DNA from: Podarcis vaucheri
Lineage: Eukaryota
Length of the DNA: 64,000 nt
Direction: 5' to 3' (one strand)
NCBI GenBank assembly: GCA_965113315.1
Contig: OZ220372.1
The first letter of the stretch is position 1; each line of letters opens with the position of its first letter. This document shows, piece after piece, positions 13,533 to 64,000 of the stretch. The notes under the pieces are model-generated. The model did not search any database. It was given only the letters and a program-made list of their open reading frames with translations, and was not told the DNA's origin. The translations under genes were made by a program, and so were the position numbers.

Positions 13533-13676
13533 CATTGCTCAGTCGGTAGAGCATGAGACTCTTAATCTCAAGGTCGTGGGTTCAAGCCCTATGTTGGGCG
13601 AAAGATTCTTGCATTGCTGGCGGTTAGACTAGATTACCCTTGTGGTCCCTTCCAACTCTACAGTTCTAGGATTATG
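13533..13676 (+). mobile_element. tRNA-Lys(CTT)-derived SINE with CR1-like 3' tail
   Basis: GCTCAGTCGGTAGAGCATGAGACTCTTAATCTCAAGGTCGTGGGTTCAAGCCC followed by GACTAGAT..GGTCCCTTCCAACTCTA..TTCTA. The 5' acceptor stem is damaged. Confidence 0.88.
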
Positions 13677-16989: not shown

Positions 16990-19510
16990 TGCGTGGCCGA
17001 GGATCCAGGACGTGGCCGAATGGTTGCCCCCCACATCCTGTCCCTACGATCCTGATCTAGTTATGGGGCAATTTGTGCCCCCCCCAACACCCCCAAACCC
17101 TTCAGGGCGCAGTTCAGCGTCCTTAGGCGCGCTCATGGCTCGGCCGCTCGCGTGCCTGCCTTCCCCGCCGCGTCCTGGCCTCGCCTCTTCTCCTCTCCCG
17201 CCGCCGGGAGCCTTGGAGATGTTGCGGCTCAGGCAGCAGGCGCCTCCCCGCCGCCCGGCAGCCTCCGCCCCACTCGGCGAGGGCGGTGGCGGCGGCAGCG
17301 GCTCCTGGTCGAGCCTCCCCGGCTGCCCTTGACACCAATCCCCCTCGGAGCGGCAACAAAAAGCAGGCAGGGGCAGGTGGCGGAGAGGGACGGCGGCGCG
17401 CCTCCTCCTCCTCCTTCCGCGCGCGGCCTCCCAGCGACTCCAGCCCGAGGCGGCCGCGGCGCACAAAAGGCCCCGTGTCTTTCGTGCCGCCTCTTTTCTT
17501 TCGCGGCGGCGGCGGCGGCGGCCTCTGCAGGCCACGTCATGGGGAAATAAATAAATATCGCCCCATTCAGCCAGTGGCAGCGAGCAGGAACCGGCGGCGG
17601 CGGCGGCTGGAAGATTAGGACCAGCCCACCCAAACTAGACACACACAGAGAGGGAGACCAAGCCAGGTAACGTAAAACGGAGCCATCCAGTTCATCTTTT
17701 TTTTTTTTTAATTAACAAAATAGATGGGCAGGGCGGCCGGGTTTCTAGGCAGAAGGGGGCCGCCGTCTGTTCCAGCCCCATTGTCTCCGCCGCTTCGTGT
17801 TTGAATGTCCCTGCTTCTGCCGCCCGAGTGTGTTGCTAACTGTGTCGGAATGGTGTCGCTTAAGCAACGAGAAGAGCGCCTGGTCTGCTGCTGCTGCTGC
17901 CGCCGCCGCCGCCGCGATCGCGTTGGCTTTGGGATGCGAGGCGCCCAAGTCCCAGCTCACACTGTGGATGATGCATCACACACGGGGGAAGCGGGCAGAG
18001 CAGGCGCGAGGGGTGCGGGGTGGGCGGGAGACCCACACTATGAACGGCGCCCGCCGGCAAAGGAGCAGCGGGGAGTTGCAAGCAGAACACGGTGCCCACC
18101 CCCGTCCCCGTGGATGAGAAGGATGGATGGGGAGCGCGGTCAGAGCTCGCCTCTCTGCCAGCCCCCGTCCGATCAGTGACCTCCAGAGATGTACCCCGTG
18201 GAGAGCGCGCAATGGCACTCACCCACGTAGACCCAAGTGACAGATGCCCATCCGAACCACCATATGCCCCTTAGAGCCACTCCCACGCTCCCACGTAACC
18301 CCCCCCCTAAAACATAGGAGCCAACATAATTTATTGGAGGGGCCGCTCCCAAAGTGGATGGGCATTGCCATGGTGCGCGCGCGCGCGCTGCGTCGTCATG
18401 TGGCCTGGGGCTCACCTGAGCGCCCCAACATTTTATTCAAGCTGGCACCACGTTGCGTGTGCGCGCCCGATCACAACCGATCCCCCCCCCTCTCCTCCCC
18501 ATCACGTTGCTCCCCGGTTCCAGTCTTTAGCTAGCGGGATACGCACGCCTGCAGCTCTGCTGCTTTTCGAAGAGGGGCTCTTCTTTCTCTCCCCCCCCCC
18601 ACCAAAAGGAGCCATTTTGAATGGGGGAGTGGGTGGCACGGTGGAGAAGGAAGGAGCTGCTTGCCTGGGCCGGGCACCGTGGCTTGCAAGAGCTGCGGGT
18701 TTGTGGCTGGTTGGGTGGGTAGGCAGAACGCGTGCCGCTACGTCGCTGGTGCGCCTTTGTGTCTGCGCTGCCGCAGCAGGCGGAGGTGGCTAAGGCATCG
18801 CTCGCGTGTGCGCGCGGGTCTCCTTCTGGAGCTCCTTGCCGAGCGCGGCCCTTGCCTCCGCCTCCGCGCCGCGAGGGGACTCGGGGTGGCTAGGATCAGG
18901 CGGTGTATTTCTGGGCAGGCAGGTCTGCCTGGGACTGGCTTTTCTTTCTCTACCCCCCCCCCCCGCTTCTTGGTAGTCAAATCCTCCAAGGGTCAGGCGC
19001 CTGGAGCCGGATGATGCTCTTCGCGCTGGGCGGGGAGGCGGCGCGTCAGAGGCGCGCGTGGATGGCCTGCCTTTGCGCAGCGCGTCTCCTGGTTTCCAAG
19101 GCCCCACCTCGCCGGCGGCCAATGGGAGGCGCGCGGCGGCCAGCAAGGCTTGCGAGGGGATGAAGGAAGCGAGAACTCGATCCGTCGGCGAAGGGAGGGA
19201 CGCCGACGTCACGAGAGAGGGGGGCTTGGCCGGCAAGCTGCAGCCGGTTGGCTCTGGCGGGCGCCAGGCCATGTGGAGCGCGGCGCAGCAGCCGCTGGCA
19301 CCGCCGTCGGCCCGCACGCCGGAGAAGGGCACGCCAGGCTCCTCGCAGATGCAGCCTCCTCATTCATTGCTGGCGCCTCCGCAGGGCAGCTTGACCTTGC
19401 CGGGCAGTTTCCGTTTCGCGCCGCCTGCGGAGCTCCGGAGCTGTCCAAAGAAATCGTGTGCACGTTTGTTTGTTTTTTTGCGGGGGGGGGGAATCGGCTC
19501 CACGGATCTG
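16990..19510. promoter_or_regulatory. CpG island, probable gene promoter region
   Basis: About 2.5 kb very rich in GC and CpG within a CpG-depleted AT-rich background, with no repeat hallmarks. Contains a GC box (GGGGCGGAG on minus near 17265), a (GC)n NRF1-like run near 18374, YY1-like GCCATTTTG at 18611, GGCCAATGGG near 19117 and CRE-like GACGTCAC near 19205. Confidence 0.85.
17100..17666 (+). other. Candidate non-coding first exon (5' UTR) of an unidentified gene; start uncertain
   Basis: GC-rich segment with (GGC)n tracts ending in donor CAG|GTAACG (GT at 17667-17668). No recognisable coding sequence. Confidence 0.45.
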
Positions 19511-20701: not shown

Positions 20702-21468
20702 ATAGAATCATAGAATCATAGAGTTGGAAGAGACCACAAGGGCCATCGAGTCCAACCCCCTGACAAGCAGGAAACACCATCAGAGCACTCCTGACATATG
20801 GTTGTCAAGCCTCTGCTTAAAGACCTCCAAAGTAGGAGACTCCACCACACTCCTTGGCAGCAAATTCCACTGTCGAACAGCTCTTACTGTCAGGAAGTTC
20901 TTCCTAATGTTTAGGTGGAATCTTCTTTCTTGTAGTTTGGATCCATTGCTCCGTGTCCGCTTCTCTGGAGCAGCAGAAAACAACCTTTCTCCCTCCTCTA
21001 TGTGACATCCTTTTATATATTTGAACATGGCTATCATATCACCCCTTAACCTCCTCTTCTCCAGGCTAAACATGCCCAGCTCCCTTAGCCATTCCTCATA
21101 AGGCATCGTTTCCAGGCCTTTGACCATTTTGATTGCCCTCCTCTGGACACGTTCCAGTTTGTCTGTGTCCTTCTTGAATTGTGGTGCCCAGAACTGGACA
21201 CAGTACTCCAGGTGAGGTCTGACCAGAGCAGAATACAGTGGCACTATTACTTCCCTTGATCTAGATGCTATACTCCTATTGATGCAGCCCAGAATTGCAT
21301 TGGCTTTTTTAGCTGCCGCGTCACACTGTTGGCTCATGTCAAGTTTGTGGTCAACCAAGACTCCTAGATCCTTATCACATGTACTGCTCTCAAGCCAGGT
21401 GTCACCCACCTTGTATTTGTGCCTCTCATTTTTTTTGCCCAAGTGCAATACTTTACATTTCTCCCTGT
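20702..21468 (-). mobile_element. CR1 LINE, 5'-truncated, ORF2 C-terminus open (~230 aa)
   Basis: [58 protein letters not shown]; (ATTCTATG)n octamer tail at 20702-20721. Confidence 0.97.
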
Positions 21469-24439
21469 AATACAAAAGGAAGATATAATTAACATTGGAG
21501 AGACACAGGTGATCTAGGCTTTTTTGTTTGGTATAGGTCGGCTGATCTTCTAAAAGAAAAATCTGAATTTGTTGTAGTTATTTTGTTTCACACAGAAGAA
21601 TGGCAGCCCTCAAGTTAACAATCAAGGGCATCTCTTGTTAAATAACTCCATTTGGCAAACTTGTGAAAGAACTTTGTCACCAGACAAAGTAGCTCATACT
21701 AGGCTAGATGGTCCAGTGATCCATGAAGGCTTCATCTGATAAAGGTAATGAATAGAAAACACCCTTAAAAATGAGACTTGTCACATTTTTCATGCATTTC
21801 AGTAGAGAAAATTACAAGAAAAGCTTGTTGTGGGGTGGGGAGTCAAGTTCTGTAGTCCTACAGCAATGTATGCAGTGGCCTCCACAGCAAGTGCAATTTT
21901 GGCCCCCCTGCTACTGCTACTACTACAGAGCAACAATAGGTAGAGCATCATGAGTTCAGCATAGATGTCTACACACCTGGAGCTTCCTGTGGTTTTCTGA
22001 GCCCTGCATTTCAAAACAGACTTGCAGAGAGGCACTCAAATGTGGGGAGAAGAATGTGCCATTGCAGACTTTTGCTTCACAGTGATTAATATACAAATTG
22101 GTTATTTAGCATGCTATTTGTGTTAGACGAATCTTAAGCAGTAACTTTGCTTCTTTATACATTTTTTTAAAAAAAATCAAGTTAAAAAGACACCAAAACC
22201 CCACACCTACATACATAAGTCACCATGTCCATAAATGACAAATCTTTTCTGTTAGTGAATTGCTGTCTACCTTGCCCTTAAAAAAAGAAAAGAATCTGAG
22301 CTTTCAGTGCCAGTGCTGCGCTATTCATGTACAATCTTTTTTTTTCTAATCCATGTTGCGTCCTGGGACGCAACAGTCCCAGGGAAATAACCAGGAGTCT
22401 AAAATGATATAGTTCTCTCAAGCAAAAGACCTTTTGGGTTGTCGCCAAAGGCTGCACCTAAACTCTTATGCAAGTGCACTTGGGCTACCTGCCCAACAGT
22501 TTGAAAACTCGCAGGCTACAGTTGTAAGCTCACAAGAAGCGGAGCTTTAGCAAGAAGCCAAATGCTGACAGTTGCCTAAGGTACTAACGGAAGGTTAAAG
22601 TAAGAATGCGGTGGGGGTGGGCATTCTCACATTTTACCTGTTCCATTATGTTTGCATGTGTTCCTGCAAGTTCTCATTCCAGAACTGAAGGAAAAGGTAC
22701 GTGCCGTGTTGAGCAGCATTGATCCAGTCAAATTTTAGCTCTTAGTTTTGGGTGCAGTTTCAAATTTTGTAAGTCGTAGAGAATAGCTGGTGCATGATAT
22801 TGATAAAGCACAGCCATGTGTGTGTTTTGGACACTAGGATTTCAGTCCTAACGACATGTATGTGAAAGTAAATTCCATTGAAGTCAGTGATATTTACCTC
22901 TGAGTGACTATGTTTTAATATCCCTTTTTAAGACTCCCATTTACATGCACAAGCATGTACTGGTGGGCGCAGCTCACCCCAGGAGGAAGAAATCAAATAT
23001 GTAATATCAGTGGAATTGTAGGAGACTGTAATGAGATGAGATAAACTGCTTATAATAGAAGGCTACTTGGCCAACCATTGAGGCAAGTAAGAATCACTTC
23101 CAGGGGATCATATACAAAAGTGTTTATATATGGAAGGGAAACAGTTTTTCCTTTTTCCTTTAGACTCTCAGTGTGCCACAAACGGCTATTGTGTGTACAT
23201 GAGAGCAAATATTCTAGCTCGGAATCAACATTTTGAAAAGTAACATTTGTGCTTCTGTTTGTGAGGCTCTTGTCAGTCCTCTCACCATTGCTTTATTGTT
23301 CTGCAACGGCAATTGTACTGTGTTGTCTTTTCCTTCTCCTGACTTTATTATCTCTGTTCCTGAAAGATAAGCTCTGTATCATAGGGGCTTTCCTGTGAAG
23401 CTCATCCTATTTTATAGTAGGCCATAGCAGGCTTATGTTGGGTTAAGCAGCTAGGCAAACTATACCTGAGTGTAGACTTTGAAATGAGCATTTGCGGCTA
23501 TTGAGGGGGCCATTGCTTATCCCATCCTCTTGTCTGTCTTGTATCTCCCCCACCATCTCCTTATGTTATGTTCATCTTTCCTCTCTGCCCCTTTCCTCTT
23601 TTTCTTCTCATTTTCCAGAGGAAGAGGAATGTGTGTCAAAGACAAAGAAACCATTAGTGTCCCCAGTGATGGCTCCTTTCCTAAGTCAAAAGTGAGAATT
23701 GGTGGTGAGGAGTCTTACAGAGGGCTGCTAAATATTTAGTGAAGGGATAAGAAAGAGGAAGATAAGAAATGTATGTGTATTTGAAGGCAAACCAGAACAT
23801 TCCATTCCAAGATTAGGCAGAGAGGGGAATACAGCATTATAGCTGGCAAATTACATTGTCTAGAGTGACTTTAGCAATTCAAAATAGATAAGCACAGATA
23901 TGGCTATCGTAGACTTCATTCCAACAGCTAGAAGACCTCCAGTGTACAGAGGGAGTGACAGTTTACTGTCCTATGGCATGTGGAGCCCCCCCCCTGCACT
24001 GCTTTATGTCCACCTCCCATATATTTTCGTTAAGTAAAAGGAACTACACTAACTAAAGCAGTTCCTGGGCTTGCTGTAGAAATACATCTGCCTCATCAGA
24101 AGCTATGCTTCTGACCTGAATTCTGTGGGTGGTATCAAACAAAGTAGTTCTGCTAGCACAATGACTACTTCACCCCTTCACCCATCCCTGTGTTCCCTTC
24201 TACCCTCCTCAGATCTGGTGCAGAAGGTTCAGAGAACCCCCCGAGCAGATTTTGGAAAATGGGGGAGGGGAGAGAAAGGGGAAGTTCTGTTGTGCAACCC
24301 AAAGTCCTTGTGCTAATGGAACAACTTTGTGCTAATGGAAAAACTACATTTTACTTCATTGTGCAGCTGTGTTTTGATTTCCCCCGATCTTAATCTTCTC
24401 CTTTGTTTTAGTGTAAGGAGATACAAAGTATTGTGTGCT

Positions 24440-44815: not shown

Positions 44816-45994
44816 GCGAATTTTTCGCTGATTTCTTGCAGCCCCCTGTTTTATCCCCAAGGTTGTTCCTGGGGGGGGGGTGTATGGAGAGACCCATGAA
44901 GGTCGCCTTTCCTTTCCTCCAGCAGCAACCTCTGCTGGTTCGGAATCCCTTGCATAATGGAAGGAGCCCTTCCATACACGAAAGGGCATGGCTGGATATG
45001 TCCCAGAATCTTTCAATGGCATGATATATACAGTCACATGTAAAGCATGACAATGCTTAAGTTTAGTGTGGGTGATCTTTATCACACATAAATTTAGTGG
45101 CAAACAACCTATATCGTAGGAGAGAATTAAAGCCATAATGCTGCTTTCCCTTGTTTGTTCTTTTTAAAATTGAAACTACCCAAATCTTATGCTTCCATTT
45201 TGCATTTAAGCCTGTAATCCTAAATACACTATCTTGGAAATAAATCTTCCATGAATTCACTTACTATATGTGCACTTCATTTTCTTATTTCTTGAAAGGA
45301 ATTCTGGACAATTAAGTCTGTCTTCCTACACATGCAGAGAACATCTAGTATGGAAACAGCATTTGGAATAATATTATGAATGCTTTCAAAAGAACAAAGT
45401 AAACTCACTGAAAAGCTTTAAAAGAAAATACCATTGTTCTGACTTGCCTTTTATTTGTGTAGCCCGAAGTAGAAATCACCCAAGTTGTTTCTGAGTTAAT
45501 TATATTATTTTTATGACAGCATTGCAGTTGGGAAAGAGGAAGGGAGGAAAGAGAGATCAAATGGGCTTTGCTGAAAAAGATAGGATTTAAACTGTCAACT
45601 TTGTAGGTTCCATTTGTGCTACGCTATTATGTGAGGCAATGGTTCTTACTACTTTACTTGTTCTCAAAATGCAGTAACTCTCGCCTACTGAAAATGCTTC
45701 GGGGTTGAACCAATAAAAATAATTTGAATTTTCTAAATAACTATTGCTTTTAGAGGATGCATTTGAGCAAGAAGTCGGCTCCCCACTTCAAATAATAGTT
45801 AATGGTCTTCAGATTCTTCTCTCTCCAGGTGCGCCCTGAATCATAGATTTCACTGACATGCGCATGAAAATGTACCGTTCGTTGTGAGCAGGCAATTTTT
45901 ACCTCAGTCTTTTATGTAGCTTTGAATAAGTGTGTCTCTGTTGCAGTTATAATGAACTTTGTTGAAAATCTACGGTATGTCCATTCGTACATGG

Positions 45995-46585
45995 AGCAGA
46001 ATGCCGCAGCGAGACTCCTTACGGGGTCTTCGCTGCGGGATCACATTCATCCGGTGCTATACCAGCTGCACTGGCTCCCAGTGGAGTACAGGATCAGGTT
46101 TAAGGTGCTGGTTTTAACCTTTAAAGCCCTATACGGCCTAGGACCCTCGTATCTACGGGACCGCCTCTCCTGGTATGCCCCACAGAGGAACTTACGGTCC
46201 TCTAATAAAAACATCTTGAAGGTCCCAGGCCACAGAGAGGTTAGGCTGGCCTCAACTAGAGCCAGGGCTTTTTCGGCTGCGGCTCCAACCTGGTGGAACG
46301 CTCTGTCACAAGAGACAAGGGCCCTGCAGGACTTGACATCTTTCCGCAGGGCCTGCAAGACAGAGCTGTTCCACCAGGCCTTTGGTTAGGGCACAGCCTG
46401 ACTCCCTCCTTCAGCAATCTTTACAATACTTTAGTTTATGGTTGCCATTAATTTTGATTTTAATTAATTCTTATGATGTTTTTATATTGTTGCACTTTTT
46501 TAGTGTTGTTAGCCGCCCTGAGCCCGGCTTTGGCTGGGGAGGGCGGGATATAAATAAAAATTTATTATTATTATTATTATTATTA
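45995..46585 (+). mobile_element. Young L2 LINE 3' fragment, ORF2 end open
   Basis: QNAAARLLTG..DHIHPVLYQLHWLPVEYRIRFKVLVLTFKALYGLGPSYL..RAFSAAAPTWWNAL; CpGs retained; (TTA)n tail. Confidence 0.95.
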
Positions 46586-52402: not shown

Positions 52403-54250
52403 TGCACACTATTGTTACAGTTCAAGTAGAGTTATGTTAAGGCTGACCTACACAATTTGCGGTATACCAGTTTGGTGCAGAGTGCATTCACAACCCAACA
52501 ATGTGATTGACACTGCAGGTAGGCGATACTTGGAGCGATTAGCATCTGAAGTGTCAGAAGAGATGTCAGCAGTGACTTATCCTTTGTTACATCTCTACAA
52601 GCTTATGTTGACCCATAGCAGCACTGGAGAAGAAGCTGTAGATGCAGTTAAAGGGGTAACAATAGGAAATCCAACAACAACAACAACAAAATACAGCATG
52701 CCATTCCCTTCAGGGGTTGACTAGTACAATGGCAAACAAATATTATAATGGTGTCTGTGATGCTACAGATAACTGAGAAGTGAACAGCTCTGAGCAAAGT
52801 TATATAGCTTTTGTTTATTGTCCAATGACGGGGGAAATGAGGTAGCAAGTTACAACAAAGATGCCAGATAGAAGAGCTTAAAAGAACAGCAGAAAGAGAG
52901 AGAAGAGAGTTATTTAGAATGATAACTTAGAAGGAGTTTAATTAGAGAAGCAGCGAGAACAAGCACTTTTAACACAAGCATAGGATGTTGCAATGCAGTT
53001 TCCTCATGCCACATTGTCAAGCTGTGACCTGACAGTAACCCAGAGGAGTGTGGAAGGAACTTTGGCAGTGGCTGCCTGTGTCCTTGTGAGTGTGACTGTG
53101 TCCTCCTGCTTGAAGGAGAGAGGCAGAGTGTCTGGCCGACGGGAATGTCTAGGGTGAAGGGTCAGATAATAGCAGACTGCGCAAATCATGAGGAAGGGTG
53201 CATGCCGTGATAGGGGAGGCGGAGAAAATGTTTTCACCAGACACCTTGTTCAGTACAGCTGATATTTTAATGCTTGCTTGGCAGAGAAGTCAGCAATGAG
53301 CACAGAACTGACCAGATCCAAGAAAACAAAGTCCGGTGTGTGTGTTCATCATAAACACAATTGCTTGGGACTAGAATGTCATGTTGGAGAACCTCCACCC
53401 ACCCCCGACCCTGGCTTTTACCTGATTGCTTAAGGAAGAATGATGATCAAAATATTATTTATATTACGAATATTATAATAAAAGTAGTGTGGAAGAACAG
53501 TAAGATCCGTTTGAAACTATGTGTTGTTGTTTTTTTAAAAAAGAGAAATGGACAACCTTTAAAATATACCCAAAGGGAGCAATTCTAACCTACCTTACCT
53601 GGGAGCAAGCCCCATTGAATTCCATATGATTTACTTCTGAGTAGAGATGGGAAACCCAAGTGTCTATTAGTATATGGTATGATGGCAGATCACTAAAGAA
53701 CAAGTTCCATCCCCCCCCCGTCTTCTACCCCACCCTTTTTATTGCTCTTCACATGATTGACTTAACCTCAATATAGTTCAAACCTTTAGTAGTTTGGAAT
53801 AAAATTATTTGTTCTGGATTTGGTGATATGGGAGGGAGCTTTATGTTGTAGGTATGAAATAAACAATAAAAGTTTATTTTATTTTTTCAAGAACAGCAGC
53901 TAGAACCTTAGAGCAAATATTTGCAAAGAGGGAGTTTACCAGAGGCAGGTCTCAAATACAGCCAATGCAATCATGCAAATAAATCTACACAGTTTACTAG
54001 TGCACCAAAACTTTTTCAAAAAATTAGTTATTACTGAAATAAAAGCCTGTTGCACATGTATACTTCTCTTATAGCCCAATCCATATATATTTAGTCACTG
54101 AGTTAAATGGCACTTACTCCCAGGTAATAGGATTGCCTCCTTAGTTTCCTGTGGTGCAACAATAGTCTAATCAAAAGAAACCAACTCTCTTCCAGTTTAC
54201 AAAATCTTTCCTTCCTATTCACCTGGAATCAAGTTTTTCTTACCATAGGA

Positions 54251-54385
54251 CAGGCCTAGGCAAACTCAGCCCTCCAGATGTTTTGGGACTACAACTCCCA
54301 TCATCCTTGACCACTGTTCCTGTTAGCTAGGGATGATGGCGTTTGTAGTCCCAAAACATCTGGAGGGCCGAGTTTGCTATGCCTG
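54251..54385. mobile_element. Palindromic hAT-type MITE
   Basis: CAGGC..GCAAACTC / GAGTTTGC..GCCTG; 8-bp TSD CCATAGGA (54243-54250, 54386-54393). Confidence 0.93.
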
Positions 54386-55426
54386 CCATAGGAGATGTGG
54401 CAAATGCCATGTAGGGTAACTTGATTGTTTTGTTTCAAAAGGATTTAGACTAAGCTTTAGGATCACCTGATGCTGCCATGTTTGGCAGTGGAACAGATCT
54501 TGCAGGTCCAAAGAGGCGTCTTCCTCCAACTGTGACTAGTGGCCACAGGAGGCATTTCATCTTCACCAGGGTACACGTCTGCATATTAGAATGCAGTCCC
54601 TTTAACTACCTAGTAGGCTTCCTCCATGATGGCAAAGGCACACCCATGTCTCTCTCTGCAGGAATATCTAAAACTTCAGAAGGCTGTAGACCAGTGCTGG
54701 AGCAACACTCCTCGTTTCCTTCTGAGTCTAGCACCCAGCCCAATCCTCACTCTTGTTCTACAGAGAGCTCTCCATGGTCCTGACCCCTAGCTGTCTGACC
54801 TTTGCCATGCCATACTATGTGCCTGATCACCCTTATATCTTCCGGCGAATTTTCTCAATTTGACAGGATGTATTATGCATGTTGTTTGTTAATTGTTCAA
54901 ATGAAGTACATTCGCTGTTGCGTTGTCATCTGCTCCGCCAAAAACAAGCGGAGGAAGTTGACCATTCGCCTATACCAGGATCTATTTCTACAGTAGCAAA
55001 ACATGTCCAGTGGAAATGTAACAAGCTTCTCTTGGCTCAGTTAACAAGCAAGGAGAGTTTCCAAGTGCATGAAGTCTTTGTTTTCCCCCAAGTCTTGAAT
55101 AACAGCCAGTGGAATACTAAAGCAAAACGCCTACCCTTAGCATGTAGAGTTTAGCCTTTGTCTAAAGGAAATGGAAAGTCACCTTTACCACCTGAATTAA
55201 GATTCAGTTGCTGTCCTGTGCATACATACATGTATCTGTTGATTTGCATGTTTTTCTTTGATTTCCATAAGGCTTATAGCACCATCTTAAGCATGTTCTT
55301 TTTCCTTTCAGAAGTAAACATGAATCCCACTGAATTTTAAGGATTTTACTCTCAGGTAGGCATGCATAGAAGTGTAGCCTTACACTCAGTTAAGTAGTAT
55401 AGGGTTGCAGCCTTAGAGTTCAGTTG

Positions 55427-55804
55427 TGTCCCATTAAACTTTAATTAGTTTAATGCTTATCAAATGTCCAGTGCGCTTCCGATGCCACAATGTCCCATTA
55501 CAGCAGAGCATTTCGCACAGCGGCTCAAGAAGGGCTGGAGAGTCAGCATCTTTTCAATAAAGGAATCTTGGAGCAAGCGGTTTGGAACTCAAATAAAAGG
55601 TTTATTTACACAAAACAAAAACCCTGGTGAAGAATCACACATTTCAGCAAACACGCCCCAAAAGAAAAAGGGGGAAGGGAAGGGGCAGGCACACGAGTGA
55701 GTTGACTATTTATACAAACTCACATTCCTGGAAGCCTAACGACCTCCAGCTGCTCAGTGATTAGAGCGTCTTGATTAGAGCTTCTTAACCCTTTAATACC
55801 AACA
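55427..55804 (-). repeat. 3' LTR of the copia element (378 bp)
   Basis: No difference from the 5' LTR found by visual comparison; both give the same 78-aa antisense ORF. Preceded by the PPT. Confidence 0.96.
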
Positions 55805-55816
55805 CCCCCTCTCGCT
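55805..55816 (-). other. Polypurine tract
   Basis: Minus strand AGCGAGAGGGGG immediately before the TG of the 3' LTR. Confidence 0.85.
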
Positions 55817-55839
55817 CGTAACACTGAGCTGTACCAACC

Positions 55840-58800
55840 TTAATTCAAATTTAAACCTGAGCAGAAACATTTATGAGATTGCGGACTCAAAGCTTTTGTA
55901 AAACCGTCTGCGAGATTTTCTTGGCTTGGACAATACTTTAGTTCAATTAAACCATGTTTTACACTTTGGCATACATTTTGATAACGGATATCCAAATGTT
56001 TTGTGTGTGCCTTGAATTGACCTGATTTAGCTAGTTTAATACAAGGTTGATTGTCTTCCCACACTCTGATAGGTAGGGAACATTCTCCAAACAATTCTTG
56101 TACCAGTTGCTTATAAAATTCCAGTTCTCTACATACATCTGATAATGCATTGAACTCAGATTCAGTTGAACTTAAAGCTATAAGTGATTGTTTTCTTGAT
56201 CTCCAACCAATTAGTGCATTTCCAAATTTTATCGCCATTCCTGACACTGATTTTCTATCTGGTCCAGCATCAGCCCAACTGCTGTCAGCCCAACATTCAA
56301 GTTGTGTGCTGCCCGCTGCTGATAGTTTTAAGCAAAACCTTTTGGTAGTTTGGAGATACCTTAAAACTCTTTTTACTCCTTGCCAAGCATGCATTGATGG
56401 TTTTTCAGCTTGTCTACACAGCATGTTGACAGCATATGTTATATCGGGCCGAGTCCACTGTGCAATGTGGAGTAGACTGCCTATCGCTGACTGGTAAACC
56501 CCGGGATTACAGAACGCTGCCTGTTGCTCAGTTTGAGCATCCTTTGTGTAACTTAACTCCATTGGGGTTTTAACACCAGCACAGTTGTCCATTTTAAACC
56601 TTTCCAGCAACTGCTGGATCTTAGCTTCTTGGCTGAGCCAATAGTTCCCATCTTCATCTTGCTGTATTTTAACTCCTAGATAAACAGATACATTGCCTAG
56701 TGATTTTATCTGAAACCTTTCTCCAAGCTTTGTGGCAAATTGTTGTGCAAGTTTATCGTCCTTTCCACTGTATAATAAATCGTCAACAAATATCAAGACT
56801 GCTTCTTGTTCACATCCCAAGCCTTTTAGATAAAGACACGCATCTGCTGCGCTCTTTCTGAACCCCATGCTCTCTAGAGCATCGTTTAAGCAGGAATTCC
56901 AATTACGGGCAGACTGTTTCAACCCATAAATGGATTTGTGTAGGCGCCAGACCTGGTTTGGCTTGTCTCCTTCAAAACCTGGTGGTGGCGTCATATAGAC
57001 TTCCTCCTGTAAGTCTGCATTTAAATAAGCCACATTGACATCAAAATGAAACAGCTTATTTCCCTTCTTAGCTGAAGAGGCTAAAAGCATTCTTAATGAC
57101 TCCGATCTTGAAGTAGGGGCATAAATTTGAGAATAGTGAACTCCTTTGCGCTGCGAAAAACCTTTTGCAACTAGTCGAGCTTTATATTGCAACTCCTCAG
57201 TAGTTGTGGGCTTTAAACGATATACCCATCGACAACCTACAGCTTGTTGCCCTTCTGGAAGCTCTGTACTTGTAAACACACCGAGAGACTTCATTGAAGC
57301 CATCTCTTTTTCCATTGCTTCCTGCCACTTTGCGGCTTCTGAGCTTGGAAGCTGTTGTACCTCTACATAGCTATCTGGCTCACACTGTGCCATATTTACG
57401 TATACACTTGTCACCTTAAACCGCTCTGGCGGCTTGCCCTTTGTGGCACGTTTTGACCTGCGCAATTGCTCCTCTTGTGCCCCCTCTGACCGTTGGCTGT
57501 CAGAATCTGTCTCAGACTTTATGTCTGGACGTGCCTCTAGGGATAAAGACCTCCGTTTAGATACCTCCCTTGGGCTTGGTGTTGCAGGCGACCTGCTTCG
57601 CTTTTGCTGTCTGCTAGGCCTAACGACTGGCGATGTTGGAACACTCCTAGATTCTGGCTTTTCTACCTTAGGAGAAGAACCTTGTGCCTGGTCAGAATCT
57701 GCATCTGGACCATGTGCACCATCCCCTTCTGGCTCAACACCCTCTGGACTTTCATTCTCAGCATAAATGCCTAAATCATCTCTCAAAATGTCAGGGTTAG
57801 CATGTAAGTGAGTCCATCCGGATTGCTCACAAAATTCAGCGCTCCTACTGAGGACCACTCTTGTAGTATCCCCATCTGGGTTCACAAACCTCCAAGATTT
57901 GGCATGTGGTTCGTACCCACAAAAGATGAGTTTCCTAGCCCTTGGACTTCCCTTTTTCCTTAACGCTTTTGGGATAAGTACATAGGCTTGAGATCCAAAC
58001 ACCCGAAAGTAATTAACTTTGGGCTTTTTCCCATATAAAGCAAAATATGGCGTAGTATCAATTACCGAATTATATACTCGGTTCAGAACATGAGTAGCCG
58101 TCTGCCAGGCTTCCGCCCAGTAACTTTGAGGAAGTTTAGCATCAAACAACATAGAGTTTGCCAACTCTTGCAGAACCCTGTTTTTACGTTCGGCCACGCC
58201 TCCTTCTTGGGGGGAATAAGGTGTAGACAGACGATGCTTAATTCCCTTTTTCTTAAAGAAATTCTGCAACACAGACCCGGTAAATTCTGACCCTCTGTCT
58301 GTCTGAAAAGCAAGAACTCTAGTACCGAATTCAAGTTCTACTGCATGAACCCAATTTTTAACTGTTTCTGCAGTATCTGCTTTTGTTTTGAGAGGAAAAA
58401 ACCATGTAACCTTTGTTTTGTCATCTGAAAGACACAGTGCATACCTCGAACCTCCCATGCTAGCAACAGGCATTGGGCCACATAGGTCCATATGCACAAG
58501 TTGGAATACCTTGTCAGATTTCCTATTTGAACTGGGATAGCTGCATCTATGAACCTTCGCCCTTTTGCATGCAGTACAATCCAAATACTTAGTACATTTG
58601 TTCAATTTGCACCCTTCTGATAATTCAGGTTGTCTTTTAACATACTGAAAATTAATATGTCCCAAACGGCGATGCCATAAATGAACACAAGAATTATGGG
58701 TAGGCAAGTTCACACAACCAGCATGAACCTGTTCAACTTCATCTGGACTTGTCTCAAAATAATATAACCCATTTCTGCATTCCACCTGCAAAAGAGATAC

Positions 58801-59985
58801 ATTATTCTTTGAAATAGTGCAAACCCCATTTTCAAACACAGTTTTAAACCCATTTCTATCAAGTTCTGACACAGACAAAATACACCCCTTCATTCCCTTT
58901 AGCACGTAGGCATCAATTTCTGTTTGCAAACACTTCAAAAACACTGTGCCTACGGTCTCTAAGGAACGTTTAGTTGAATCTGCCATTGTCACAACTTTAA
59001 GGGTTTGCAAATGTCTGCAATTCTGCAAACGGACACTAGATGGCGCCACCAGGTGGTGAGATGCACCACTGTCGATCAACCAGCGTAGATTGCTGCCTTG
59101 GCCACGCCCTTGCATCAACGCCATTGCTGAAGCCATGTGCTGTGTGCTGTGGGAGTAGCCATGACCTCCTCCTCTTCTTCGACGTCCCCTGGAACTCCTT
59201 GTCTGGTAACTAGGGGCAACGGCCTTGGTGCTGTCTTGACCAGGTTCACGTGTACAATTCCTGATTAAATGGGAAGAGGAACCACAGCGAAAACAGTGTC
59301 TAGCTGCAAAAGCATTTACTGTGTTCTCAAACTCAGCATCCCCACTCTTAGGCACAGCATAACTCCCCTTTGAAGACAAACCTCTTTCTCTTTGCCTTTT
59401 ATCCTGTTCATCAGCAAGTCGAGAAGGAATGTATTCAAGGGTTAATTCAGATGAAGGCATAGCTTCCAAAGTTAAAGCTAGAGTCTCATAGCTTTTATCA
59501 AGAGAAGACAACAAAATGTATGACTGCTGCTCCATAGAGAAAGGAATGCCCAGCTGTCTTAGTTGATTAAAGGCTGACACCATTTTGGCAATATGTTCTT
59601 TCACACACGCTCCCGGTTGGAGACGTAAATCAAACAAACATCTTGTAGCATGGATCTTGGCCCCCGCAGTGTTTCTGGAATTTAACCGCTGTAGAACCGT
59701 CCAGACCTCATGCGTGTTCTTTAACTCAGAAACATAAGGCATTTGCTCTGGTCCCACTGCCAAAACTAGTAGACCTCGGGCTTTCCTGTCGCGTTTCTGA
59801 GAAGCTGCCGCTGCTGCTTTGTCTTCTGCAGACGCGTCTGCAGCTGCCTGTAAAGGCGGTGCTTCAGTACAACTCCACAACTCTTTTGCTTGCAACCAAA
59901 CCCTTACTCTAGCCTTCCAATCTTGCCAATTTTTCCCATTGAGTCGCGTAAAGGGGACAGTAAAACTTTCCTGGGACTCTGCCAT
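55840..59985 (-). CDS. Copia-type Gag-Pol polyprotein, 1381 aa, uninterrupted
   Basis: Gag N-terminus LNGKNWQDWK; zinc knuckle CFRCGSSSHLIRNC; aspartic protease WLIDSGASHH; integrase HHCC (LWHRRLGH...CTAC) and D,D35E (VHMDLCGP, QTDRGSEF, GVAERKNR); RT (YKARLVAKGFSQ, FDVNVAYLN, LHKSIYGLKQSARNW, FVDD); RNase H (WADSSWA, STESE, EDNQ, KHLDIRY, LADGFTK). Confidence 0.97.
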   Translation of the reverse strand: MAESQESFTVPFTRLNGKNWQDWKARVRVWLQAKELWSCTEAPPLQAAADASAEDKAAAAASQKRDRKARGLLVLAVGPEQMPYVSELKNTHEVWTVLQRLNSRNTAGAKIHATRCLFDLRLQPGACVKEHIAKMVSAFNQLRQLGIPFSMEQQSYILLSSLDKSYETLALTLEAMPSSELTLEYIPSRLADEQDKRQRERGLSSKGSYAVPKSGDAEFENTVNAFAARHCFRCGSSSHLIRNCTREPGQDSTKAVAPSYQTRSSRGRRRRGGGHGYSHSTQHMASAMALMQGRGQGSNLRWLIDSGASHHLVAPSSVRLQNCRHLQTLKVVTMADSTKRSLETVGTVFLKCLQTEIDAYVLKGMKGCILSVSELDRNGFKTVFENGVCTISKNNVSLLQVECRNGLYYFETSPDEVEQVHAGCVNLPTHNSCVHLWHRRLGHINFQYVKRQPELSEGCKLNKCTKYLDCTACKRAKVHRCSYPSSNRKSDKVFQLVHMDLCGPMPVASMGGSRYALCLSDDKTKVTWFFPLKTKADTAETVKNWVHAVELEFGTRVLAFQTDRGSEFTGSVLQNFFKKKGIKHRLSTPYSPQEGGVAERKNRVLQELANSMLFDAKLPQSYWAEAWQTATHVLNRVYNSVIDTTPYFALYGKKPKVNYFRVFGSQAYVLIPKALRKKGSPRARKLIFCGYEPHAKSWRFVNPDGDTTRVVLSRSAEFCEQSGWTHLHANPDILRDDLGIYAENESPEGVEPEGDGAHGPDADSDQAQGSSPKVEKPESRSVPTSPVVRPSRQQKRSRSPATPSPREVSKRRSLSLEARPDIKSETDSDSQRSEGAQEEQLRRSKRATKGKPPERFKVTSVYVNMAQCEPDSYVEVQQLPSSEAAKWQEAMEKEMASMKSLGVFTSTELPEGQQAVGCRWVYRLKPTTTEELQYKARLVAKGFSQRKGVHYSQIYAPTSRSESLRMLLASSAKKGNKLFHFDVNVAYLNADLQEEVYMTPPPGFEGDKPNQVWRLHKSIYGLKQSARNWNSCLNDALESMGFRKSAADACLYLKGLGCEQEAVLIFVDDLLYSGKDDKLAQQFATKLGERFQIKSLGNVSVYLGVKIQQDEDGNYWLSQEAKIQQLLERFKMDNCAGVKTPMELSYTKDAQTEQQAAFCNPGVYQSAIGSLLHIAQWTRPDITYAVNMLCRQAEKPSMHAWQGVKRVLRYLQTTKRFCLKLSAAGSTQLECWADSSWADAGPDRKSVSGMAIKFGNALIGWRSRKQSLIALSSTESEFNALSDVCRELEFYKQLVQELFGECSLPIRVWEDNQPCIKLAKSGQFKAHTKHLDIRYQNVCQSVKHGLIELKYCPSQENLADGFTKALSPQSHKCFCSGLNLN

Positions 59986-60240
59986 CCTCCCTGGGGCTTA
60001 GGAACGATACTCACAGACCTGTAGACCGTCTCCCAGCTGCTGAGGTGGCTCCACGAGGAATAAGACGTCTTCCAGCGAGTACAAACTGCGCAGTGCCTCT
60101 TTAAAACTTTTCCTAGGCACGTTGCAGGACTCAAGCTGCTTTGAAGGCTTTCGTTGTCGGCAACCGCTTCTGTCTTCACTCCAGTCCTTGCATAAATCAC
60201 TCTTAACTGCACTCCTTATCTCCTTCTTGACGTACAAACA

Positions 60241-60248
60241 CCATAACC
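60241..60248 (-). other. Primer-binding site, half-tRNA-iMet type, short (GGTTATGG)
   Basis: Abuts the 5' LTR. Complementary to CCAUAACC in the anticodon arm of initiator tRNA-Met, matching the first 8 nt of the Drosophila copia-type PBS GGTTATGGGCCCAG. Confidence 0.8.
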
Positions 60249-60626
60249 TGTCCCATTAAACTTTAATTAGTTTAATGCTTATCAAATGTCCAGTGCGCTT
60301 CCGATGCCACAATGTCCCATTACAGCAGAGCATTTCGCACAGCGGCTCAAGAAGGGCTGGAGAGTCAGCATCTTTTCAATAAAGGAATCTTGGAGCAAGC
60401 GGTTTGGAACTCAAATAAAAGGTTTATTTACACAAAACAAAAACCCTGGTGAAGAATCACACATTTCAGCAAACACGCCCCAAAAGAAAAAGGGGGAAGG
60501 GAAGGGGCAGGCACACGAGTGAGTTGACTATTTATACAAACTCACATTCCTGGAAGCCTAACGACCTCCAGCTGCTCAGTGATTAGAGCGTCTTGATTAG
60601 AGCTTCTTAACCCTTTAATACCAACA
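60249..60626 (-). repeat. 5' LTR of the copia element (378 bp)
   Basis: Minus strand begins TGTTGGTATT and ends AATGGGACA. TATAAA at 60531-60536 and AATAAA at 60423-60428 on the element strand. Followed directly by the PBS. Confidence 0.96.
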
Positions 60627-61878
60627 AGTTGTAACACACAGAGTTAAGCACTGTTACAATGGCTCTTGTCTCTAAGTGACGGTATATACTGTCTCCACCT
60701 TAACCACCTAGAACTACAGTTCCCATTATCTTGCTGACTGGGGCTGATGGAAGTTGGAGTCCAACAACATCTGAAGGGCCATATATTGCCTATCCCTGAC
60801 CTTGTCTATAAATCCCTGACCTATAGAATATTGTCACTAAGCAGTTATCCACACCTAGCACCAAAAACTCAGGTGAGCTAAAGGAAGTTCTTCTTCTCAG
60901 TGTCTGTTTTGATTTAAGATTATTCTGGACTTCCAAGAAATCAGGACAACCTGGAAAAATATTGCAGAGCCAATCTAAGGATGTCCGATATACAGTACCT
61001 TGCTCATCTACATAACTCCCTGCTAGACCCTAATATTACTCCACCCTTTGCAGTGATGGGTGTACTGGAGGGGGGAATCTCCTTTTCCTTCCCTCTCTGT
61101 CACTCCATTGTGCTTGATAACAGCTTTGGGGAGTAGGGAATAGTGACGAGAGATGTGTCTGGGGATTTTGAAAACATGAGTCAGGAGAATTTTGGAGCTT
61201 GTGAAGTACAAGTTTGGAAGTGAACTTCTGACAAGACACACTGTTTATTTCCCAGCTTGGCTTAGGAAAACTTCACTGGCATCTCTGCTTCCCTTACATG
61301 TGGCATCCTTCATTAGAATAATGGAAGGTAGGATTGAGCTTGTTCCTTGCTAAGTGACTAGACAGAATACTGTCCGAACATACTGCTTTGTATTTTTGGA
61401 TCTACACGGGCAACAGTTGACTGTAGAAAAAAGGCTGGGAGGCCTGGCCAAATAGTGGCCCACATGCTTACTAAATGGCATACACAGAATTTGGGCAAAT
61501 CCTAAATTGGTCGTGTGGCAAGTCCATTGATCCGAATGCATCGTAAATGCATTTACAAGACTGGGTTGTCCATAGATAACTAGCACGGGTGACTCAAACA
61601 AGTATTCCTCAAACAAGTGGGAAAAACACACCGTTTTGTGAGTCATGGTGTCTTTAAGTGCATATTATGCAAGATAGATTATATACTCAGCTTTAAATTG
61701 AGAAACGACAAGGATTAACATTTTATTGCATCAGATAAAATATTGCATTCAATTAAGAACCTAAGAAGAGCCTGCTGGGTCATGCTAATGGCTCACCTTG
61801 TGCACCATCCTGTTGTCACAGTAGGCAACCAGATGCCCGTGGGAAACACAAGCCGTACCTGATCACAGAGGTGCAGCA

Positions 61879-62691: not shown

Positions 62692-62827
62692 CAGGCTTCC
62701 TCAACCTCGACCCTCCAGATGTTTTTGGCCTACAACTCCCATGATCCCTAGCTAGCAGGACCAGTGGTCAGGGATGATGGGAATGGTAGTCTCAAAACAT
62801 CTGGAGGGCTGAGGTTGAGGAAGCCTG
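62692..62827. mobile_element. Palindromic hAT-type MITE
   Basis: CAGGCTTCCTCAACCTC / GAGGTTGAGGAAGCCTG; 8-bp TSD GATTAAGC (62684-62691, 62828-62835). Confidence 0.93.
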
Positions 62828-64000
62828 GATTAAGCATACTATTATTCACAATGCGATTCTAAACATTTTATAAAGAAGCCCCATTTTGTTCCATGGGATT
62901 TACTCCCATATATATAGGGTTGCAGTTGTACAGTGCAATCCTATATATGTTCACTCTGAATTAAGTCCAAAAGGCTTGCTCCCAGTCAAGCAATGTGCTT
63001 GATGCATCTTCCCATCTCTTCTGTTTCTCTGTGAAAGTTACTAAGATGAATGGCTTGCAAAGCAAAACAAAAGCTTGCCTGCTGGTTCATCTCTCTCCTT
63101 CCTGAAACATCAAATGCCATTCCCATTTAAGCATTGCATTTGGCCCAAACGATCCCATGTTATCTCCCTTCGAACTTGGCAGGGGATGATTTACATGAGC
63201 AGCATGTACGTAACATCTGGTTGGGAAGGGTAGCTGAATAACTTTGTGCAGTAGAGGCATGAAATGAAAATGGCAAGCTAGTGTACATAATTTGGGGCTC
63301 AAGGGCCCAGTTTTTTTCCTGAGCAAATCTGGCTTGGCAGATCTGACAAAAAAAATAGTGCCAGCTTGAGACATGTTAATGTGGGCAAATATAATCAGCT
63401 CCCAATTTTAAGTTAGACTAATTCAAACAATGGGCAGATGCTGTTGGAAGACAGCAGAGTCATTTCCCATTTAATCAAACTATAGACTCGAACAGTACTT
63501 TACTAGCAATGACAGCCTTGCTCAGTGGTACACCTAAGCTTTAAAGGCAATTCAGGAGCTCCACTTATGGCACAGGCAGTAGATGCCAGGAGGTAAGAGA
63601 GGCACACTACTGAGCCATCTCAGCTTTCGAAAGGTAATTCTGAAAGGCCGTTCTTGTAGAGCAAGGAGAGCAGCTAACTCTTCACAATGAAAGAAACTTC
63701 ACATATGAGAGATTAGGCTTAAAAATAAGAGCAAACAATCTCAGAAGGATATCTTAGAATGCCATCAAGGGATGGCAGCTGTGTTCCATTTTTAGGATAT
63801 CAAGTTAACAAACGTTATGCTTTCAACAGTAGTAAAATAATAATGCAGAAAGCACTATTTCCCTCCTCTAGATCCAGCATCTTACAATACACATGGCTTC
63901 CTCCTCCTCCATGCAGGCAGGTTGTCATTTATCTTCTGATGTCTTCCTTTCCATAGCATAGATTCATTCATGGGTATAGTCAGCACTATGTGCTGATTTA

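What the first reader, a model, noticed from the sequence alone, without database searches (positions are those of the whole stretch)
55427..60626. Intact, apparently very recent Ty1/copia retrotransposon in an amniote genome
Seen: LTRs with no visible differences, an exact TSD, and a 4.1-kb ORF without stop or frameshift. The catalytic acidic residues of PR, IN, RT and RNase H appear present and CpGs are retained. Known: LTRs are identical at insertion; copia elements are sparse in amniotes and essentially absent from mammals and birds. Inference: this is a currently or very recently active vertebrate copia family, possibly polymorphic at this site and possibly acquired horizontally.
Basis: partly seen in the sequence, partly recalled or inferred. 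Interest (0 to 1): 0.75.

Follow-up and report, generated by a model that had tools for sequence, protein, structure and literature searches.

The report
Young copia jumping gene in lizard
This is a complete copia-type retrotransposon with identical end repeats and an unbroken gene, at a spot that appears empty in two related animals, so it likely jumped in recently from a still-multiplying family in a likely wall-lizard host; recently active copias are already known from snakes, so it is a new family of a known kind.

Summary
Observation confirmed: a 5,200-bp Ty1/copia element (55427-60626, minus strand) with two 378-bp LTRs that are 100% identical, a 5-bp target duplication, one 1,381-aa gag-pol ORF (PR-IN-RT-RH) and all catalytic residues.

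Recent activity is supported. In three DNA runs (two organism labels) near-identical copies (0.6-1.0% from the window) collapse into contigs at about 33-66 times flank depth. In two of the three the flank contig runs past the site without entering the LTR (inferred empty site); in the third it stops exactly at the fork (likely heterozygous). Both LTRs share letters that differ from the high-depth copies, which argues against a polishing artefact.

Horizontal transfer is not supported. The element sits in a well-supported clade whose only named members are Podarcis lizard copias (44-62% in RT-RH); named invertebrate copias are 36-42%.

The surprise is smaller than claimed: copias make up 0.5-1.7% of elapid genomes, and a recently active corn-snake copia causes two colour mutations. 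One small oddity is a primer site with only 8 nt of the half-tRNA-type motif. New member of a known kind.

The parts
55422..55426 (.). Target-site duplication, left copy (5 bp)
   Evidence: identical to 60627-60631
55427..55804 (-). 3' LTR, 378 bp, TG...CA; poly(A)-signal-like hexamer at 55606-55601
   Evidence: 378/378 identical to the 5' LTR; hexamer position, its function inferred
55805..55817 (-). Polypurine tract (12 of 13 purines) abutting the 3' LTR; predicted plus-strand primer
   Evidence: sequence; role from established LTR-element biology
55840..59985 (-). Single gag-pol ORF, 1,381 aa (P0001)
   Evidence: an independent full-length relative P0255 is 1362/1381 identical
55876..56301 (-). 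RNase H region (about aa 1229-1370; D1234, E1277, D1311, D1360)
   Evidence: motifs located (assignment recalled); aligns to RT-RH relatives; no Pfam hit
56557..57279 (-). Reverse transcriptase (RVT_2, aa 903-1143; D982, D1068, D1069)
   Evidence: PF07727 E 2e-69
57814..58035 (-). SH3-like domain after the integrase core (aa 651-724)
   Evidence: PF25597 E 3e-21
58210..58770 (-). Integrase: HHCC/GAG-pre-integrase (aa 406-477) and core (aa 492-592); D500, D563; E599 lies just past the Pfam stretch
   Evidence: PF13976 E 9e-10, PF00665 E 1e-12; motifs
58846..59082 (-). Aspartic protease (aa 302-380; D305)
   Evidence: PF22936 E 4e-5, below its cut-off; D-S-G motif
59254..59904 (-). Gag: copia-type capsid (aa 28-201) and one CCHC zinc knuckle (aa 231-244)
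   Evidence: PF14223 E 3e-26; knuckle pattern
60241..60248 (-). Primer-binding site directly after the 5' LTR: 8-nt core of the half-tRNA (initiator Met) type
   Evidence: same first 8 nt as the motif after the LTR of L001, and the same motif occurs in L003; tRNA identity recalled, pairing not tested
60249..60626 (-). 5' LTR, 378 bp; TATA-like box at 60536-60531
   Evidence: promoter role inferred
60627..60631 (.). Target-site duplication, right copy (5 bp)

Best explanation
It is a structurally complete Ty1/copia LTR retrotransposon with identical LTRs and one intact gag-pol gene, likely inserted very recently from a multi-copy family that has likely long been resident in lacertid-type lizards and is likely still segregating at this site. 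Mechanism (inferred from the anatomy and from known copia biology): RNA polymerase II would start in the 5' LTR about 25-30 nt after the TATA-like box and end after the poly(A) signal in the 3' LTR. The 1,381-aa polyprotein would be cut by its own protease into Gag, IN and RT-RH and form intracellular particles (there is no env gene). Minus-strand DNA would be primed by a cleaved initiator-tRNA half at the 8-nt PBS and plus-strand DNA at the PPT. Two strand transfers make the LTRs identical, and the DDE integrase leaves a 5-bp duplication. This copy likely came from a minor sub-lineage of the family: it differs by about 0.6-1.0% from the commonest copies in the runs laid, and its two LTRs share those differences.
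For: Anatomy. Multi-copy and young: internal contigs up to 1.57 kb long at depths of 731-1,980, against 10.6-33.6 for unique flank, ratios about 33 (X1), 66 (X3) and 56 (X7). They differ from the window at 23/3663, 29/4133 and 28/2808 letters. Not fixed: X3 record 10 and X7 record 18 fit the left flank through 55427 and run on 127 and 124 letters unlike the LTR, departing exactly where an empty allele would; X1 record 3 ends at 55427. Not a polishing artefact: both LTRs carry letters at 55673-76 (against X1) and 55688-89 (against all four runs) that differ from the high-depth contigs. If the 0.63% were decay after insertion, P(0 LTR differences) = 0.009. Selection on coding: 10 of 18 differences in X1 records 4-7 are synonymous (one unlisted site counted as non-synonymous), crude dN/dS 0.22, P = 0.002. 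Independent intact ORF P0255. Resident lineage: clade of 9 rows at 100/99 whose only named members are Podarcis lilfordi and P. raffonei; inner clade of 7 at 100/100; 3 of 6 gag hits are P. lilfordi. Element divergence is similar to flank divergence (0.6-1.5%).
Against: The X1 fork could have another cause, and X1 may be the source sample. The tool states that depth is not a copy number. Identical 378-bp LTRs only bound the divergence below 0.8% (95%), or under about 1-4 My at assumed rates. The dN/dS of 0.16 rested on 19 sites from the 40 of 132 rows shown; P0255 differs at 19 residues, which gives about 0.44 if 12 differences are synonymous (P = 0.025). 5 of those 19 sites look like CpG decay in the window copy. 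Host species is not shown by any search. Priming and autonomy are untested.
Confidence: 0.82

Rival explanations
1. The family entered this lizard lineage recently by horizontal transfer from a distant host.
For: The element is near-identical across several organism labels (20 runs, 10 studies and 9 labels hold 0.44-0.76 of the words). Its nearest other family is only 60-66% identical in RT-RH. Most close relatives are unnamed.
Against: Only Podarcis is named in the clade; the best named non-vertebrate is 42%. The two organisms laid share the flank too (0.6-1.5% divergence), so they are close kin. PMC7070016 reports that 93.7% of vertebrate transfers involve ray-finned fishes and that retrotransposons persist vertically under purifying selection.
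Confidence: 0.08
2. An older insertion whose LTRs were made identical by assembly collapse, polishing or gene conversion.
For: The copy differs by 0.6-1.0% from the commonest copies and has some CpG-type changes.
Against: The LTRs share non-majority letters; the internal differences lean synonymous; the ORF is unbroken; the site appears empty in 2 of 3 DNA runs.
Confidence: 0.06
3. This particular copy is a weakened or passive variant, copied in trans by proteins of other family members (compatible with recent insertion).
For: 19 residue differences from P0255; a one-letter length difference just behind the PBS core against the high-depth contigs (table 5c). The RNA reads of X23 carry the other copies' letters (for example 6 of 6 at 55861).
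Against: No stop or frameshift; none of the 19 differences falls on a listed catalytic residue. X23 is another organism label, so it says nothing on this locus.
Confidence: 0.2
4. The near-identity among related species reflects spread of the active family by hybridisation or introgression rather than plain descent.
For: In X3 and X7 the element is closer to the window (0.70%, 1.0%) than the flank is (1.38%, 1.49%), and many differences are shared by all runs.
Against: Purifying selection on active lineages, and collapse of many copies into one contig, lower the element's divergence by themselves. In X1 the two values are equal (0.63% and 0.60%).
Confidence: 0.15

Closest known systems
Podarcis lilfordi copia polyprotein CAI5768508.1 (P0003, annotated 'Retrovirus-related Pol polyprotein from transposon TNT 1-94') and P. 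lilfordi gag proteins P0243-P0245
   Same: Same domain order and near-equal length (1,376 aa); 56% over IN-RT-RH, 62% in RT-RH, 41-52% in gag; same clade at 100/100.
   Different: A separate family (long branches between them); P0003 breaks off in late RNase H; its LTR and PBS were not seen.
Corn-snake Copia LTR retrotransposon (OCA2 amel and CLCN2 stripe alleles; PMC4657000, PMC11948899)
   Same: Full-length squamate copia, recently active, near-identical insertions (1 nt apart), 85 copies at >95%, restricted to a young host clade.
   Different: 5,832 bp against 5,200 bp. Read by eye from the supplement, it has another LTR, is more A+T-rich, and has a PBS of the tRNA-3'-end (TGG) type. It was not aligned, so its place relative to this clade is untested.
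Drosophila copia and yeast Ty5 (half-tRNA priming)
   Same: Single gag-pol ORF in copia order; PBS begins with the motif recalled for initiator-tRNA anticodon-loop priming. Half-tRNA priming by copia and Ty5 is stated in PMC5371799.
   Different: Only 8 nt of the motif, against 11 or more in L001 and L003. No spliced gag RNA was seen. Proteins were not compared directly.
Arthropod, nematode and cnidarian copias (Anopheles, Aedes, Araneus, Trichuris, Paramuricea)
   Same: Same superfamily and domains.
   Different: 36-42% identity in RT-RH; outside the lizard-containing clade. Assignment to a named clade (Mtanga, Hydra1.1, GalEa) was not tested: no reference sequences were at hand.

Membership tests
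Ty1/copia (Pseudoviridae) | Direct LTRs with TG...CA ends and a short TSD | tested here: met
   378-bp LTRs, 5-bp TSD
Ty1/copia (Pseudoviridae) | Integrase upstream of RT (PR-IN-RT-RH) | tested here: met
   rve aa 492-592 precedes RVT_2 aa 903-1143
Ty1/copia (Pseudoviridae) | Copia-type RT (PF07727), gag (PF14223) and GAG-pre-integrase (PF13976) | tested here: met
   all three above their curated cut-offs
Ty1/copia (Pseudoviridae) | PBS after the 5' LTR and PPT before the 3' LTR | tested here: met
   8-nt PBS core 60241-60248; PPT 55805-55817
Half-tRNA-primed copias (copia/Ty5 type) | PBS complementary to the initiator-tRNA anticodon stem-loop, used as primer | tested here: inconclusive
   8 nt shared with the L001/L003 motif, then departs; host tRNA not fetched; priming not testable
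Endogenous retrovirus or env-bearing element | env ORF; RT-RH before IN | tested here: not met
   only 35 nt between the stop codon and the 3' LTR; IN precedes RT
Ty3/gypsy or BEL | RT-RH-IN order, RVT_1-type RT | tested here: not met
Currently active autonomous element | De novo insertions or extrachromosomal cDNA from this family | not testable with these tools
   only indirect signs: inferred polymorphism, tens of near-identical copies, about 40 RNA reads
Named copia clade, or an existing Repbase/Dfam family | Grouping with curated reference RTs; 80% or more DNA identity to a library entry | not testable with these tools
   no such library is on hand
Horizontally transferred element | Higher identity to a distant host's element than host genes show; patchy distribution | tested here: not met
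   nearest named relatives are lizard copias; invertebrates 42% or less; vertebrate sampling in the database is thin

The most novel reading that the evidence does not exclude
A copia family is transposing right now in wild lacertid lizards, with tens of near-identical copies per genome and insertions segregating within species, and it primes reverse transcription from a cleaved initiator tRNA through only an 8-nt site. That would give a natural amniote system in which to study copia mobility, tRNA-fragment priming and its control.
Probability: 0.4. Interest if true: 0.45.

Novelty: new member of a known kind. Interest (0 to 1): 0.3.

Why it matters
Mammals and birds lack copia elements, so live examples in amniotes come only from reptiles. 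The corn-snake family shows that such insertions create visible mutations. A second, separate young family segregating in lizards with many public genomes would be a source of structural variation and useful population markers, and a place to look at half-tRNA priming in a vertebrate. It does not overturn anything: recent copia activity in squamates is in print.

Tried and rejected
No whole genome is held, so copies could not be counted in the assembly.

P0241 (98% identical gag, 354 aa) first looked like a spliced gag-only product. Its last 7 residues match a sequencing-adapter read-through (recalled), so I rejected it. Of 15 listed members of its 19-member cluster, 10 are unrelated 41-46-aa peptides, so the cluster size is no count of copies.

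Self-priming: no complement of the PBS elsewhere on the element's sense strand. The fold of the LTR end and leader is unremarkable (z -0.29).

No spliced joint inside the element was listed for the RNA run, but depth was only 1-8. X23 gave about 40 element reads (my estimate from table 2), nearly all first-mate on the minus strand and piled at the element's 3' end. Orientation cannot be fixed without a host-gene control.

The first dN/dS (0.16) was set aside as resting on a selected subset.

A HxxCxHL(W/L)H motif, tried as a clade marker for placing the corn-snake element, also occurs in 5 unnamed proteins not shown to be in the clade; the one of them in the tree (P0027) falls outside it (12 of 96).

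Host gene: 270 open stretches (150 from 30-64 kb, 120 from 1-17 kb) gave no real Pfam hit; the one hit is a GA microsatellite. The 58 stretches of 19.5-30 kb were not scanned.

The metagenome scan found only 4 distant copias (30-34%) among 84 candidates. Earlier scan notes: nothing. Paper searches listed no description of this lizard family, and none of its PBS; the library covers open papers only. The first tree (85 rows) was the quick method; the careful tree used 26 chosen rows and left out the plant, fungal and algal rows and most unnamed ones.
Full report
1. The observation. The repeats 55427-55804 and 60249-60626 are identical over 378 bases and cannot be extended; they begin TG and end CA on the minus strand, and the same five bases flank both ends. 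One minus-strand ORF runs from 59985 to 55840 and gives 1,381 residues. Pfam finds copia gag, protease-region, GAG-pre-integrase, integrase core, SH3-like and RVT_2 domains in that order; two of the seven hits (Pol_BBD, DUF4219) are below their cut-offs. The expected acidic residues of protease, integrase (D500, D563, E599, with 35 residues between the last two), RT and RNase H are present (motif assignments recalled). CpG observed/expected is 0.49 in the element, 0.25 in the left flank and 0.37 in the short right flank. A 13-nt purine tract abuts the 3' LTR. There is no room for an env gene (35 nt between the stop and the LTR). The window holds no other copy.

2. Host. No call names the host. 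The nearest named proteins are from Podarcis wall lizards, and the surrounding repeats look like squamate SINEs, CR1 and MITEs (labels recalled), so a lacertid-type lizard is likely. No coding exon was recognised near the insertion: 270 open stretches were scanned, with one spurious hit; 58 stretches between 19.5 and 30 kb were not scanned.

3. Is it young and multi-copy? Twenty public runs from 10 studies and 9 organism labels hold 0.44-0.76 of the sampled words of 53000-60245. I laid 4 of the 24 listed runs on 53400-60245: X1 and X3 (organism A), X7 (organism E) and X23 (RNA, organism I). Unique-flank contigs have depths of 24-32, 10.6-12.7 and 31.6-33.6; internal element contigs have 871-939, 731-802 and 1,474-1,980. 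The ratios are about 33, 66 and 56. The tool warns that depth is not a copy number, so I read this only as tens of copies. That they collapse into contigs up to 1.57 kb long means they are nearly identical. The listed contigs differ from the window at 23/3663, 29/4133 and 28/2808 letters; the flanks differ at 11/1837, 25/1818 and 29/1949. An independent contig encodes an unbroken 1,381-aa protein, P0255, identical at 1362 of 1381 residues.

4. Is the site fixed? In X3 and X7 a single-copy contig fits the left flank through 55427 and then runs on for 127 and 124 letters unlike the LTR (records 10 and 18). Position 55427 is the last letter shared by the filled allele and the predicted empty allele, since both continue with T after the target site. 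In X1 the flank contig ends exactly at 55427, as a fork between filled and empty alleles would make it. This suggests a heterozygote, but it is an inference, and X1 may be the source sample. X1 and X3 carry the same organism label, so the site likely segregates within a species.

5. Are the identical LTRs real? Both LTRs carry letters that differ from the high-depth contigs (55688-89 in all four runs, 55673-76 in X1). Polishing towards the commonest copy would have removed them. If the 0.63% internal difference were decay after insertion, identical LTRs would have probability 0.009. The differences lean synonymous: 10 of 18 in X1 records 4-7 (one unlisted site counted as non-synonymous; crude dN/dS 0.22, P 0.002). 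Against this: my first figure of 0.16 came from 19 sites among the 40 of 132 rows shown; P0255 differs at 19 residues, which would give about 0.44 (P 0.025); and 5 of the 19 sites look like CpG decay. The best reading is a fresh insertion from a minor sub-lineage whose parent had sat in the genome for a while. Zero differences in 378 bp bound the LTR divergence below 0.8%, or under about 1-4 million years at assumed rates of 4e-9 to 1e-9 per site per year. The polymorphism suggests much less.

6. Expression. X23 (12% of the run read) shows depth 1-8, about 40 reads by my estimate, mostly over 55232-57063 and nearly all with the first mate on the minus strand. The reads carry the letters of the other copies. 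The pile-up at the element's 3' end fits a polyadenylated sense RNA, but in the commonest stranded chemistry that mate direction means antisense RNA. Without a control gene the orientation is open. No splice joint inside the element was listed at this depth.

7. Origin. Over IN-RT-RH the best hits are P0002 (53%, unnamed), P. lilfordi P0003 (56%), P0008 (59% over 61% of the query) and P0007 (42%); the rest of the 120 listed rows are at 28-41%. In RT-RH, unnamed P0122-P0124 reach 60-66% and P. raffonei P0154 44%, and the best named invertebrate 42%. Three of six gag hits are P. lilfordi. A careful tree of 26 chosen RT-RH rows puts the window and P0255 with P0002, P0122-P0124 and P0003 (100/100), and these with P0007 and P0154 (100/99), apart from Anopheles, Aedes, Araneus, Trichuris and Paramuricea. 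The quick 85-row tree agrees. Several diverged families of one clade in the same lizard genus are what long residence gives; nothing points to a recent outside donor. Limits: six of the nine clade rows are unnamed, the database holds few vertebrate transposon proteins, and an ancient transfer or spread among congeners by hybridisation is not excluded.

8. How it likely works. Shown: anatomy, intact ORF, catalytic residues. Inferred from established copia biology: transcription from the 5' LTR (TATA-like box at LTR position 91, poly(A) signal at 199); proteolytic processing of one polyprotein; intracellular particles; tRNA-primed minus strand; PPT-primed plus strand; two strand transfers giving identical LTRs; integration with a 5-bp duplication. 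The PBS starts directly at the LTR edge with the same 8 nt as the motif behind the LTR of the distant copia L001, a motif also present in L003, where it continues for 11 or more nt. I recall this motif as the complement of the initiator-tRNA anticodon loop. PMC5371799 states half-tRNA priming for Drosophila copia and anticodon-loop priming for Ty5 (passages). Here the match stops after 8 nt, both in the window and in the high-depth contigs, which have one extra letter behind the core (table 5c). Whether 8 nt suffice or further pairing helps is untested; no self-priming partner was found.

9. Comparison with what is known. PMC4350176 (passages): copia is absent from mammals and birds and present in reptiles, amphibians and fish. 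PMC8872380 (passages): copia is 0.47-1.65% of six elapid genomes, expanding and expressed in hydrophiines. PMC4657000 (passages, supplement parts 4-5) and PMC11948899 (passages; its three text supplements searched without a hit): a 5,832-bp corn-snake copia disrupts OCA2 and CLCN2, the two inserts differ by one base, 85 copies exceed 95% identity, and the authors suggest it is currently active. By eye that element has another LTR and a TGG-type PBS, so it is a different family; it was not aligned. PMC4131045 (passages): copia families are present and transcribed in frogs. PMC7070016 (passages): most vertebrate transfers involve fishes, and retrotransposons persist vertically under purifying selection. 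My searches listed no paper on this lizard family. It may still stand in repeat libraries or in closed papers that I could not see.

10. Verdict. A real, intact, very young Ty1/copia insertion from a recently expanded lizard family; site likely polymorphic; horizontal transfer unsupported; present-day transposition plausible but not shown. New member of a known kind; interest 0.3.

Noticed in passing
window 54260-54377: MITE-like inverted repeat (47-nt arms, 91% complementary) with enormous summed depth in all runs laid; a similar element lies near 62695-62830.
   Followed up: partly
window 17000-19500: CpG island (GC 0.57-0.60) that looks like a promoter region, possibly bidirectional; the host gene was not identified.
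   Followed up: partly
window 20780-21577 (-) and 45868-46389 (+): Open stretches of 265 and 173 codons that read like 3' ends of CR1-type and L2-type LINE ORF2 (labels recalled, no call).
   Followed up: no
window 13537-13592 (+): Partial tRNA match (Rfam RF00005, 42.8 bits), probably the tRNA-derived head of a SINE.
   Followed up: no
window 55330-55419 and about 53600-53640: The flank just left of the insertion appears to be part of a small dispersed host repeat also present near 53600 (joint 55419->53628 in X1 and X3).
   Followed up: no
window 60240-60241: High-depth contigs of all three DNA runs have one more letter directly behind the 8-nt PBS core than the window copy; it does not lengthen the match to the motif of L001/L003.
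   Followed up: partly
P0241 and its cluster: The database protein ends in an adapter-like peptide, and its 90% cluster holds 10 listed short peptides unrelated to copia.
   Followed up: yes
window 55376 (X7): A 12-base deletion in the left flank of organism E, 50 bases from the insertion site.
   Followed up: no
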